Shown here one piece after another: positions 71 through 63,971 of a stretch of 64,000 nucleotides of DNA. Under the pieces are notes generated by a model. That model worked only from the letters and a program-made list of their open reading frames with translations. It was not told the DNA's origin and did not search any database. Position 1 is the stretch's first letter. Every line of letters begins with the position of its first letter. Position numbers and translations under genes: made by a program. Source of the DNA: Chrysomallon squamiferum (Eukaryota; Animalia; Mollusca); NCBI GenBank assembly GCA_012295275.1, contig CM022666.1, positions 15,934,001 to 15,998,000 of the forward strand, read 5' to 3'.

Positions 71-3000
71 CTGTAATAACATAAATATATAAAGTATATA
101 ATACTACTAATAATAATCATAATCATAATGACAATAATAATAACAATAACAACAACAATACTGATAATGATAATAATACCATAAGCAAAAAAAAAAAAAA
201 CAGCAATAATAATAATGAAAATAAAAATGATAAAAAGAGAAAGAAAAACACGTGACATTAAGAACAACAGAGATACAAGACATATCATTTTACGCTTACG
301 ATTAAGAAACTAATAAATTACGTTCACGGACACTCAAAACTTACAGTGGCTTTACAGAGTGACGTTAAGAAACATTGAGAAACTTACCAGTGACGTTAAC
401 GGACACTGAGAAACTTACCAGTGACGTTAACGGACACTGAGAAACTTACCAGTGACGTTAACGGACACTGAGAAACCTGTGACGTTAACAGACATTGGGA
501 AACTTACCAATGACGTTAACGGACATTGAAAAACTTACCAATGACGTTAACGGACATTGAGAAACCTACCTATGACGTTAACGGACATTGAGAAACTTAC
601 CAGTGACGTTAACGGACACTGAGAAACTTACCAGTGACGTCAACGGACACTGAGAAACTTACCAGTGACGTTAACGGACACGGTTCCTGGGAAGCCCCTG
701 GGGTCGATGTAGAAGTGGGTGGGGTGGTCTACAATTGCACGTTTCAAACCCTCACCGTGAGCCTCGGGCGATTTCAACTCATCAATCTCCTGAATGAAAG
801 GTGAGCCTGAAAACACAGGTAAACAAATAAACAAACAAACAAACAAACAAACAAGTAACTAAGTATGTAAATAAAGAAGTAAAGAAGTAAGTAACTAAAC
901 GAATAAATAAATAAATAAAATAAATAAATATACAAATAAATAAGTAAGTAAATAAATAAATAAATAAATAAATAAATAAAATGAAATGAAATATATTTAA
1001 AAAAACAATTTAAAAAAATAAAACAAAATAATTGTTAACCACAATGTCATCGCCAAACAACTTATACATTTCCAGACATACATACAACAATGGGTGGATA
1101 AACAAATAAAACCGAAAAATAATAATAATAATAATAATAATAATAATAATAATAATAATAATAATAATAATAATAATAATAACAATAATAATATAATAAT
1201 AATAATAATAATAATAATAATAATAATAATAATAATAATAATAATAATAATAATAATACTGTGTGTATGTACGTATTAAGCATTACGTGTGTGCTAATTG
1301 ACCTACCTTTGACTTGGGTTCCGTTGTACGTGATCCACACTTTGTAGACCCCGGGACCTCGGGGTCTGAACGTGATTCTGTACACGCAGGGTTTGTCTTG
1401 TACAACTTTGGCCGGGTACTGTAGTCCGTTGTACGTTACCTCCGCCTCCAGCGCTCCTTCCCCCACCCTGCTACAGTCAGCTGTACACACACGTGACATA
1501 CATAAGTTATTAGAGAAACACATAGAAATACAGATACATACATAGACAGACTGACAAATATATACATGTAGATACAAATAGATATAAACACAATTAAATA
1601 CATACATACGTGCATACATACATACTTATATCAATACACACATGTATAGATACATACATAGGTAGATAGGTAGATAGATAGATAGATAGATAGATAAAGA
1701 TCGAGTGGAAACAGAGACATCCTGATAGACAGACAGACAGACAGACAGACAGTAGGGATTAAGTTTTATATATATATATATATATACAGAATAAAATAAT
1801 TGAAAAAAAAAAATAATAATAATAAGAAGAAGAAGAAGAAGAAGAAGAAGAATCTGTAGTATATTTTCTATAATATTAAAGTCTTTGTCTTAATATTAAA
1901 AAAGATCACGTGACCACTTACCGACAAGCTGTGGAGAGCTGCAGATGGTTCCATCCTGCATGACGTAAACCTGAATGTCTGACGCGTCAGTCACGTGACA
2001 GATGAATGGTCCTCCAGTCATGTAGTCAATTTCCCAGTCACCTTTAAACAACAACATTATTATTATTACTATTATTATTATTATTATTATTATTATTATT
2101 ATTATTATTATTATTATTTTATTATTGGTATTATTATTATTTTTATTATTGGTACTATTATTATTATTATTACTTTTCTTATTGCAATTATTATTAGTAG
2201 TAGTGGTGGTTGTAGTAGTAATATTACTATTATTACTATTACTACTACTACTATCACCATTATTATTATTAGTAGTAGTAGTAGTCGAAGTTGTAATAAT
2301 AGTCATATGATGCTAATATCATTTCTAGTAGTAGTTGTTATTGTAACAGGTGGTAGTAAATGTAGCAGCTGTAGTAATATTTGTTGTTGTAGTTGTATAT
2401 TAATAATAATAGTTGAGCAGAAATAACTGTATATTGTTGCAGAAGTAGTTGTAGTAGTAGTAGTAACTGTAGCAGTTTTTGTTCCTGCTGTTACAGATGA
2501 TGGATCTAAGTTTGAAACGGTTAAATAAAAAATAAAAAAAATACAGGCATTCAGTGTCTTGAATACAAAATCGAGTACAAAGAAACAACAACAACATCAA
2601 TAGTATCAATAATATCAATAACAATAACAGCAACAAAGAGATGTATTAAAAGTAACACAATATGATCTTACAGGAAGCCTTCACTTTAATCTGACCATCT
2701 TCCTGGTGAACTGAAGTGGTGAACACGGCTTTGCGTTGTCTGTCTTCAGGGTCCGTGTTGTGGAAGTCGCAGTCTGCAAAGTAACAGAACGAGGTAAGAT
2801 GTAGCTGGGCAAAAGAATCACTCACCTCTCTAGCAAAGAGGCCTGATTTTTTACGATAAGTGTTACTATTACTGAAGTAGTCTGGGATGGTTTCAGAATG
2901 TAAAAGAAAGAGTTAAATGTTTAAGATACATAGCTGTCAAAGATTGTTATTTAGAGGATGTTTTATATAATGTGAATGGAGAGATGGTCAAATAGACAAA

Positions 3001-63400: not shown

Positions 63401-63971
63401 CTTATACAACAAAAATAGAAGAAATATATCAATAAATAATATATCAATATCTATCAAACAATCAATCAATCAGTCTGTCTATATATTTAAATTGGCAAAA
63501 TCAAAAGATAATAAAATAAATAAAAAAACAAATAAATAATCATAACAAGTTAAATTTCTTACTATAAATAAATAAAATAATAATTATAGCAAATAATGAT
63601 ACCGCAGTCAGTATTAAAAATAAAATCATATTAAAATTAATAATTACTGTAATAGGTACAGTTGTAACAGCACAAATGAAATTAACCTGTAATAAGTACA
63701 AAATATCTTTATAAACCAACCCACCTGTACAAACCAACCCCACCTCTACAAATAACCCACCTGTACAAAGCAACCCACCTGTAAAAACCAACCCACCTGT
63801 ACATAGTGTCTAAGAATGTAGGTGATTTCCTTTCTACCAGACATTTCAGCCAGTGCTGCATGGAATTCTCTGAATGTTGATGTTCCAAGCTGCGCATACA
63901 AAACTACAACAACATCATCTGTTGTCATTCCAGGGAAAATGTGGTCGAACTTGTATACTGGAGACTTGGGT
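36392..63971 (-). CDS. UGGT: UDP-glucose:glycoprotein glucosyltransferase (ER folding sensor, GT24); 5' exons lie beyond the window end
   Basis: 37 GT-AG exons. Diagnostic motifs include [63 protein letters not shown]-type [75 protein letters not shown] and C-terminal KEEL*. Phases are consistent except at exon 57864-57985. Confidence 0.96.
36787..36961 (-). CDS. UGGT: UGGT exon
   Basis: [25 protein letters not shown]. Confidence 0.93.
37504..37735 (-). CDS. UGGT: UGGT exon
   Basis: [58 protein letters not shown]. Confidence 0.95.
38256..38312 (-). CDS. UGGT: UGGT exon
   Basis: [19 protein letters not shown]. Confidence 0.93.
38976..39079 (-). CDS. UGGT: UGGT exon
   Basis: [34 protein letters not shown]. 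Confidence 0.94.
39458..39530 (-). CDS. UGGT: UGGT exon (DxD motif)
   Basis: [25 protein letters not shown]. Confidence 0.94.
39929..40038 (-). CDS. UGGT: UGGT exon
   Basis: [36 protein letters not shown]. Confidence 0.93.
40445..40529 (-). CDS. UGGT: UGGT exon
   Basis: [28 protein letters not shown]. Confidence 0.93.
41180..41272 (-). CDS. UGGT: UGGT exon (start of catalytic domain)
   Basis: [30 protein letters not shown]. Confidence 0.93.
41289..41370. repeat. 18-bp minisatellite beside a UGGT acceptor
   Basis: Unit gtatttatatgtaaattt. Confidence 0.9.
43181..43189 (-). CDS. Candidate 9-nt UGGT microexon
   Basis: Pyrimidine tract ttcctttctgtgtgtcttctctccacctctaacag|CACGCTTGT|gtgagt; phase 2-2, adds STLV in place of S. 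Confidence 0.5.
43305..43387 (-). CDS. UGGT: UGGT exon (alternative in-frame donor extends it to 43284)
   Basis: [27 protein letters not shown]. Confidence 0.87.
44185..44269 (-). CDS. UGGT: UGGT exon
   Basis: [28 protein letters not shown] |gtgagt. Confidence 0.9.
44820..46287. repeat. ~72-bp minisatellite (longer ~96-bp variant), ~19 copies, containing a UGGT exon tail plus donor
   Basis: Unit tactaatactgatattttacatgtttgtgtattaaacatgtaaaatataaaacacagtttacctctatct. Confidence 0.95.
46276..46361 (-). CDS. UGGT: UGGT exon
   Basis: [28 protein letters not shown] |gtaaac. Confidence 0.93.
46734..46840 (-). CDS. UGGT: UGGT exon
   Basis: [29 protein letters not shown]. Confidence 0.93.
47305..47356 (-). 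CDS. UGGT: UGGT exon
   Basis: [17 protein letters not shown]. Confidence 0.9.
47800..47993 (-). mobile_element. Degenerate SINE copy of the same family
   Basis: Reverse complement ggtgcttatgaatagg..tgct..ggaaagagtaac..gggtttt matches 20101-20165; head-side motifs tggctggaac and gatttgatcc. Confidence 0.55.
48026..48215 (-). CDS. UGGT: UGGT exon
   Basis: [32 protein letters not shown]. Confidence 0.93.
48639..48718 (-). CDS. UGGT: UGGT exon
   Basis: [26 protein letters not shown]. Confidence 0.9.
49341..49443 (-). CDS. UGGT: UGGT exon
   Basis: [28 protein letters not shown]. Confidence 0.9.
49437..49585. repeat. 53-bp tandem repeat (~2.8 copies) containing a UGGT acceptor plus exon head
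   Basis: cacaacactgtc at 49437, 49490 and 49543. Confidence 0.92.
50125..50462. repeat. 47-bp minisatellite (~7 copies) containing a UGGT exon tail plus donor
   Basis: Unit ttacctgtgtaacaaactaaaaaggtaactgaagagttattttgtg(a/g). Confidence 0.94.
50457..50552 (-). CDS. UGGT: UGGT exon
   Basis: [17 protein letters not shown] |gtaacc. Confidence 0.87.
51148..51278 (-). CDS. UGGT: UGGT exon
   Basis: [22 protein letters not shown]. Confidence 0.9.
52124..52255 (-). CDS. UGGT: UGGT exon
   Basis: [17 protein letters not shown] |gtaaga. Confidence 0.88.
52973..53176 (-). CDS. UGGT: UGGT exon
   Basis: [29 protein letters not shown]. Confidence 0.88.
53505..53599 (-). CDS. UGGT: UGGT exon
   Basis: [32 protein letters not shown]. 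Confidence 0.88.
54230..54328 (-). CDS. UGGT: UGGT exon
   Basis: [21 protein letters not shown]. Confidence 0.85.
54630..54753 (-). CDS. UGGT: UGGT exon
   Basis: [28 protein letters not shown]. Confidence 0.88.
55331..55495 (-). CDS. UGGT: UGGT exon
   Basis: [30 protein letters not shown]. Confidence 0.88.
55545..55972. repeat. Degenerate ~20-bp minisatellite filling most of a UGGT intron
   Basis: Unit aatgaagttttaataagtaa. Confidence 0.88.
55982..56110 (-). CDS. UGGT: UGGT exon
   Basis: [22 protein letters not shown]. Confidence 0.87.
56557..56692 (-). CDS. UGGT: UGGT exon
   Basis: [25 protein letters not shown]. Confidence 0.88.
57182..57267 (-). CDS. UGGT: UGGT exon
   Basis: [29 protein letters not shown]. 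Confidence 0.88.
57864..57985 (-). CDS. UGGT: UGGT exon (apparent 1-nt frameshift)
   Basis: [29 protein letters not shown]; the 122-nt length is out of phase with the next exon. Confidence 0.85.
58561..58650 (-). CDS. UGGT: UGGT exon
   Basis: [23 protein letters not shown] |gtgagt. Confidence 0.9.
59230..59385 (-). CDS. UGGT: UGGT exon
   Basis: [33 protein letters not shown]. Confidence 0.9.
59693..59753 (-). CDS. UGGT: UGGT exon
   Basis: [20 protein letters not shown]. Confidence 0.88.
60187..60286 (-). CDS. UGGT: UGGT exon
   Basis: [22 protein letters not shown]. Confidence 0.9.
60534..60634 (-). CDS. UGGT: UGGT exon
   Basis: [24 protein letters not shown] |gtgagt. Confidence 0.9.
61131..61203 (-). 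CDS. UGGT: UGGT exon
   Basis: [24 protein letters not shown]. Confidence 0.88.
62208..62225 (-). CDS. Candidate 18-nt UGGT microexon
   Basis: tactttttgtgtaatag|TTGTACGTCGAAAGGAAG|gtatgt; phase 1-1, adds VVRRKE. Confidence 0.45.
63216..63312 (-). CDS. UGGT: UGGT exon
   Basis: [32 protein letters not shown]. Confidence 0.92.
63715..63803. repeat. 18-bp tandem repeat (5 copies) containing a UGGT exon tail plus donor
   Basis: Unit accaacccacctgtacaa. Confidence 0.92.
63797..63971 (-). CDS. UGGT: UGGT exon
   Basis: [22 protein letters not shown] |gtgggt. Confidence 0.9.

What the first reader, a model, noticed from the sequence alone, without database searches (positions are those of the whole stretch)
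356..63803. Splice-junction 'echo' arrays: tandem repeats that copy the exon-intron boundary into the intron, in two unrelated genes
Seen in the sequence: at least seven arrays with unrelated sequences and unit sizes (18, 31, 47, 53, 72, about 120 variable, and 135 bp) share one geometry. The unit straddles a real splice site, carrying 6-50 nt of exon plus the GT or AG and flanking intron. The array grows only into the intron, and the exon-proximal copy is the one that keeps the reading frame. Donor arrays: 356-680, 3636-3830, 44820-46287, 50125-50462, 63715-63803. Acceptor arrays: 11989-12870, 49437-49585. Several arrays look more degenerate away from the exon. Inference: with about 100 junctions in 64 kb, array edges should rarely fall within about 20 nt of one, yet roughly half of the complex arrays here contain a junction. 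This suggests a junction-anchored, polarised duplication process. Candidate causes are splicing- or R-loop-coupled repair, slippage at the GC/AT boundary, or exon nucleosome edges. The process would lengthen introns and supply decoy splice sites as raw material for exon sliding, NMD-coupled regulation or intron gain. Tandem duplication is a recognised route to intron gain; this density and polarity is the unusual part.
Basis: partly seen in the sequence, partly recalled or inferred. Interest (0 to 1): 0.85.

Follow-up and report, generated by a model that had tools for sequence, protein, structure and literature searches.

The report
Splice-junction "mirage" minisatellites in vent snail
In two genes of what is likely a deep-sea vent snail, short pieces spanning an exon edge have been copied head to tail into the neighbouring intron at 7 of 101 splice junctions; this repeat type is already known from lancelets ("mirages") and a few human genes, is likely harmless clutter, and is modestly more common here than chance predicts.

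Summary
All seven arrays exist and straddle real splice sites (5 of 50 donors, 2 of 51 acceptors) of a UGGT1-like and a filamin-like gene; the best hits are Gigantopelta aegis. They are "mirage" minisatellites, described in amphioxus (Adh3, globins, PGBD5) and paralleled by human F7, CBS and 6-16 repeats. This scan has noted them before on other DNA (71 notes, at least 8 genomes). "Grows only into the intron" is mostly geometry: any junction-spanning duplication looks so if the exon-side site is used. "Roughly half" is overstated: 7 of 25 non-exonic arrays straddle, against 1.7-3.3 expected (P 0.001-0.03; window picked after the fact). The excess shows at donors, not at acceptors. Decay away from the exon is significant in 2 of 5 arrays and in 1 of 2 controls. 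The one array checked in reads is present in runs of three studies, with unit variants. Only 2 of 35 decoy positions tested would give a stop-free in-frame product. No RNA evidence was obtained. Likely mechanism: ordinary duplication and expansion, tolerated because the exon-side site wins. Why junctions are favoured stays open.

The parts
1..30106 (-). Filamin-like gene (CH domains plus filamin repeats), 15 coding exons in the window, runs off the left end
   Evidence: Best hit G. aegis filamin-C-like, 80% over exon 1; spliced frame of 810 codons without a stop
36380..63971 (-). UGGT1-like gene, last 37 exons, ends in KEEL
   Evidence: 100% to G. aegis UGGT1-like over 76 aa; exon map
316..681 (-). 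Donor mirage: 31-bp unit (19 exon + 12 intron bases), 12 copies; real donor follows base 663
   Evidence: present in contigs of three runs
3626..3832 (-). Donor duplication: 135-bp unit with about 50 exon bases, 2 copies; real donor follows 3782, decoy follows 3647
11989..12870 (-). Acceptor mirage: 99-130-bp unit, (GA)n tract + acceptor + 13-14 exon bases, 8 copies; exon starts at 12001
36714..36802 (-). Weak, decayed echo of the donor region at 36787 (possible eighth case, not counted as a straddler)
44820..46287 (-). Donor mirage: 70-97-bp units (10-11 exon bases) holding a perfect 15-bp hairpin stem; 16 copies anchored, about 20 by length; real donor follows 46276
49434..49587 (-). Acceptor mirage: 53-bp unit (7 exon bases), 2.8 copies; exon starts at 49443
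50121..50465 (-). Donor mirage: 46-47-bp unit (6 exon bases), 7 copies; real donor follows 50457; same intron as the 53-bp array
63707..63807 (-). Donor mirage: 18-bp unit (7 exon bases), 5 copies; real donor follows 63797; the first two decoys would add 6 or 12 residues in frame

Best explanation
Seven tandem arrays copy a real exon-intron junction into the neighbouring intron; they match the 'mirage' minisatellites of amphioxus, likely arose by ordinary local duplication and later expansion, and likely persist because splicing would keep using the exon-side site. Shown: arrays, junctions, geometry, stop codons behind most decoys, a 2-4-fold excess in this window. Inferred: seeds form by slippage or break repair at short shared words (exon GTCTGTG against the intron's GT microsatellite at 3626; exon ATGA against (GA)n at 11989; AGAT at 44820), then grow by slippage or unequal exchange. 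Inferred: the excess is mostly survival. An array pinned to an exon can be deleted from one side only, and exon-edge sequence is renewed from a conserved copy, while the genome makes tandem repeats freely.
For:: seven echoes at homology-mapped sites; G. aegis proteins align with no insertion across all seven when the exon-side site is used; 33 of 35 decoy positions meet a stop; breakpoints show short shared words at three arrays; units are unrelated and local; no shared structure (2 of 7 units fold better than shuffles, 1 of 5 controls); array 1 lies in contigs of three runs, with a unit variant in one run that the window lacks; same anatomy in amphioxus, normal splicing by RT-PCR; human F7 uses only the most upstream of identical donors; tandem repeats are about 10% of the genome of Chrysomallon squamiferum, against 2.9% in Pomacea.
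Against: The survival step is untested. The excess is larger for long arrays (5 of 13 against 0.7-1.1 expected, P 0.0003-0.002) and shows at donors (5 of 43 against 44 of 1761 intronic GT, P 0.005) but not acceptors (2 of 37 against 42 of 1284, P 0.35). Identity to consensus falls away from the nearest exon in all 7 arrays tested, though significantly in only 3. These points fit a formation bias as well. No RNA covers any junction, and only 1 of 7 arrays was checked in reads.
Confidence: 0.55

Rival explanations
1. Same mirages, but junctions are true hotspots of formation and growth: new units are added next to the exon, for example because allelic exchange starts in the conserved exon and fails where alleles diverge, or because of splicing-, R-loop- or chromatin-coupled repair.
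For: Excess survives complexity-weighted nulls (P 0.011-0.029) and rises with copy number. In the 11989 array the two copies next to the exon match the present acceptor, and the five distal ones share another version. All 7 identity slopes are negative. [quoted passage not shown]
Against: One window, chosen because it looked striking. A junction-free control array shows the same gradient (rho -0.68). Arrays that merely abut junctions are not in excess (4 of 17 against 2.3, P 0.13). Neighbour homogenisation gives the same block pattern without an outgroup. No common breakpoint position or structure.
Confidence: 0.29
2. No real excess: a repeat-rich genome with short introns yields a few straddling arrays by chance, and the scan picked this window for it.
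For: Strictest null expects 3.3 against 7 seen (P 0.028); the array list was compiled by hand; acceptors show no excess.
Against: Every null for all junctions together gave an excess, as did the separate donor control.
Confidence: 0.1
3. The decoys are kept by selection to tune expression through NMD or to make isoforms.
For: Many decoys score as well as the real site on a matrix from this window's own sites; two at 63779 and 63761 are in frame and stop-free. Proximal pseudo-sites are used in human 6-16 and CBS (PMC1557585, passage).
Against: Units are unrelated, copies decay and vary between runs. Intact decoys are expected of young copies. Amphioxus mirages did not disturb splicing.
Confidence: 0.04
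4. The arrays are assembly or polishing artefacts.
For: The assembly probably has errors: a 2-base frameshift sits in a UGGT exon. Six arrays were not checked in reads.
Against: Array 1 is in short-read contigs of three runs from three studies, with pieces joining it to the exon and to the far flank. Copies differ from each other in ordered blocks.
Confidence: 0.02

Closest known systems
Amphioxus 'mirage' minisatellites (Adh3, globins BflGb6 and BflGb9, troponin C, PGBD5). Seen: PMC3087553 section 16 and passages; PMC3902484 one passage. Canestro et al. 2002 known only as cited there.
   Same: Tandem copies of an exon-intron boundary, at 5' or 3' ends, units 10-160 bp, cryptic GT/AG in many copies, block-wise homogenisation; origin called unclear; an intron-gain model already proposed.
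   Different: Here a gastropod; seven cases in two adjacent genes; an excess over explicit nulls is measured. Splicing and length instability, tested there, are not shown here.
Human minisatellites whose first unit spans a donor: F7 IVS7 (37 bp), CBS IVS13, 6-16, lamin B2, PDGF. Seen: PMC1557585 abstract and passages.
   Same: Last few exon bases plus intron start repeated into the intron; the most upstream donor is the authentic one.
   Different: Isolated loci in human; here 7 of 101 junctions, two of them acceptors.
Intron gain by tandem genomic duplication across AGGT. Seen: PMC3443670 passages; PMC3265369 search listing only.
   Same: Tandem duplication multiplies splice signals.
   Different: That route duplicates an exonic segment and makes a new intron; these units straddle existing junctions and no new intron or exon is evident.

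Membership tests
Mirage minisatellite | Head-to-tail repeats whose unit spans an exon-intron boundary | tested here: met
   7 of 101 junctions
Mirage minisatellite | Occurs at both donor and acceptor boundaries | tested here: met
   5 donors, 2 acceptors
Mirage minisatellite | Unit lengths of about 10-160 bp, unrelated between loci | tested here: met
   18-135 bp, hits local to each array apart from short AT-rich ones of one unit
Mirage minisatellite | Many but not all copies keep the GT or AG | tested here: met
   Decoy contexts and scores
Mirage minisatellite | Regular splicing is undisturbed | tested here: inconclusive
   Homologue alignment fits the exon-side sites; the one RNA run laid gave no cover
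Mirage minisatellite | Length instability between alleles or cells | tested here: inconclusive
   Unit variants between runs for array 1; contigs give no copy number
Intron gain by tandem genomic duplication | Duplicated segment is exonic and yields a new intron | tested here: not met
   Units span junctions and hold 6-50 exon bases only
Intron gain by tandem genomic duplication | Intron absent from the orthologue of a relative | not testable with these tools
   No relative's DNA found

The most novel reading that the evidence does not exclude
Exon edges, donors above all, are hotspots where tandem duplications are seeded and extended from the exon side, across marine invertebrates, so that each array keeps a dated record of older versions of its junction; this would be an undescribed mutational bias tied to gene structure.
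Probability: 0.29. Interest if true: 0.65.

Novelty: new member of a known kind. Interest (0 to 1): 0.3.

Why it matters
As a repeat type it is known. It matters modestly because the origin of mirages was called unclear in print (PMC3087553), my searches found no genome-wide test and no gastropod case, and a genome with several percent of junctions affected would let formation bias be told from survival bias. The arrays are also natural tests of how the spliceosome picks among identical sites, and traps for gene annotation.

Tried and rejected
No whole genome is held, so no genome-wide test was run. The RNA run laid on 1-830 gave no cover, which says nothing either way. A metagenome scan with a filamin exon gave 1 locus of 317 candidate stretches, at 43% identity, not an orthologue. 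No protein of this species appeared among the listed hits (best 120 of 5766; all 16). A shared hairpin as cause was rejected: 2 of 7 straddling stretches and 1 of 5 controls fold better than shuffles, and one of the two was folded as a dimer. An excess of arrays that abut but do not contain junctions was not supported (4 of 17, P 0.13). Richer sequence near junctions does not explain the excess: complex 16-mers are 48% within 20 nt, 33-45% at 20-400 nt and 54% beyond. The first polarity test missed some copies and was redone. One search used 143 bp for array 2; one search used the measured 135 bp, with the same result. Small-share rows were not used as evidence. Canestro et al. 2002 could not be read, and the supplements of PMC3087553 (mirage alignments) were not opened.

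Full report
What the window is. Both genes lie on the minus strand. A UGGT exon is 100% identical over 76 residues to Gigantopelta aegis UGGT1-like, and the first filamin exon is 80% identical to G. aegis filamin-C-like, with other molluscs at 68% or less. The organism is therefore likely a related vent snail of the same family (inference; the family placement is recalled). Mapping with these two proteins gave 37 UGGT and 15 filamin exons, 50 introns (median 576 nt) and 101 junctions. Three introns were set by hand from motifs. The filamin exons join into 810 codons without a stop; UGGT has one 2-base frameshift in exon 57864-57985, probably an assembly error.

The observation. It does at 5 of 50 donors and 2 of 51 acceptors, the same seven, always on the intron side. 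Units carry 19, about 50, 13-14, 10-11, 7, 6 and 7 exon bases. Copy numbers are 12, 2, 8, at least 16, 2.8, 7 and 5. A decayed eighth candidate sits at 36714-36802.

Is it more than chance? I listed 26 complex arrays by hand from Tandem Repeats Finder rows and echo segments; one is exonic and was dropped. Two microsatellite-derived rows that meet my numeric cut-offs (8306-8356, 11775-11841) were left out, and two unit sizes were estimated; adding the two rows gives 7 of 27. Of 25 arrays, 7 straddle. A seed of the same unit length placed at random wherever it touches an intron would give 1.7-1.9 straddlers (P about 0.001), 2.7 when limited to complex sequence (P 0.011), and 3.3 when the 14-kb intron is also dropped (P 0.028). 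A second control compared real sites with intronic GT or AG at the head of an echo: donors 5 of 43 against 44 of 1761 (P 0.005), acceptors 2 of 37 against 42 of 1284 (P 0.35). The window was picked for this pattern, so these P values flatter it. The excess is moderate; 'roughly half' holds only loosely, for long arrays.

Polarity. Duplicating exon-end plus intron-start in tandem leaves the exon intact and puts every extra copy in the intron, provided the exon-side site is used; the mirror holds for acceptors. G. aegis proteins align without insertion across all seven exon-side sites. Of 35 decoy positions examined, 33 run into a stop; only the +18 and +36 donors at 63779 and 63761 are stop-free and in frame. 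So the direction follows from geometry and purifying selection. Decay with distance is significant at 11989 (rho -0.87) and 50125 (-0.85), not at 316, 44820 or 63715, and also in the junction-free control at 4178 (-0.68) but not at 55537. All seven slopes are negative, which is a weak hint of growth from the exon side.

Are they real? Array 1 was laid against four runs. Three runs of three studies cover it (22, 4 and 16 contigs); one may be the source sample. Pieces join the exon to the array (634-712), run through five units (447-596) and join the far flank (251-354, 325-401). One run has a unit variant at 583-588 that I do not find among the window's units (by eye). The RNA run gave no cover. 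The other six arrays and all decoy use in RNA remain untested.

Mechanism. Breakpoints at three arrays show short shared words: the exon's GTCTGTG with the intron's GT microsatellite (3626), ATGA with (GA)n (11989), and AGAT at the far end of 44820. Folding shows no common structure. I take ordinary duplication followed by expansion as most likely, in a lineage rich in tandem repeats (about 10% of the Chrysomallon genome; PMC7736800, passages), tolerated because the exon-side site wins, as shown for human F7 (PMC1557585, abstract and passages). The excess could come from survival (an exon-pinned array can be lost from one side only) or from formation bias. These data cannot separate them; I put them at 0.55 and 0.29.

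What is known. [quoted passage not shown] PMC3902484 (passage) adds PGBD5 and troponin C. The scan holds 71 notes with these words in at least 8 genomes, among them a clam and an octopod, none matching 'snail gastropod' and none for this genome; these are unchecked notes. My paper searches found no gastropod case and no genome-wide enrichment test, but the library lacks most subscription papers.

Verdict. A real, well-formed set of mirages: a new member of a known kind, with a moderate and unexplained excess at donors. Interest 0.3.

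Noticed in passing
window 57864-57985: UGGT exon carries 2 extra bases near its 3' end relative to the G. aegis protein, shifting the frame; probably an assembly error.
   Followed up: partly
window 30018-30071: In-frame 15-bp coding repeat (DSTFR-like, about 3 copies) at the filamin N-terminus; the G. aegis protein does not align over it.
   Followed up: no
window 46215-46287: The 72-bp unit holds a perfect 15-bp inverted repeat with a 7-base loop (z -5.0).
   Followed up: partly
window 664 and 682: Two synonymous differences in the filamin exon next to array 1, in contigs of one run (664 also in a second).
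   Followed up: no
window 3924-4035, 4178-4690, 41282-41370, 55537-55968: Arrays ending 9-27 nt from a splice site without containing it; not in excess (4 of 17 against 2.3).
   Followed up: yes
window 18402-18449: (CACTTA)8 reads as repeated GTAAGT, a donor consensus, on the gene strand inside the 14-kb intron, with no mapped exon beside it.
   Followed up: no
window 10253-10335: AG...GT-flanked stretch with an open frame inside a filamin intron, a weak 31-bp repeat about 20 nt away; no support from the homologue.
   Followed up: no
window 31470-31530 and 34838-34885: Near-identical 40-base lead-in before two (CT)n tracts, suggesting a small dispersed repeat (by eye).
   Followed up: no
P0005 and P0121: The G. 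aegis UGGT1-like and filamin-like hits both list a longest contig of 47,317,128 bases, hinting at kept linkage.
   Followed up: no
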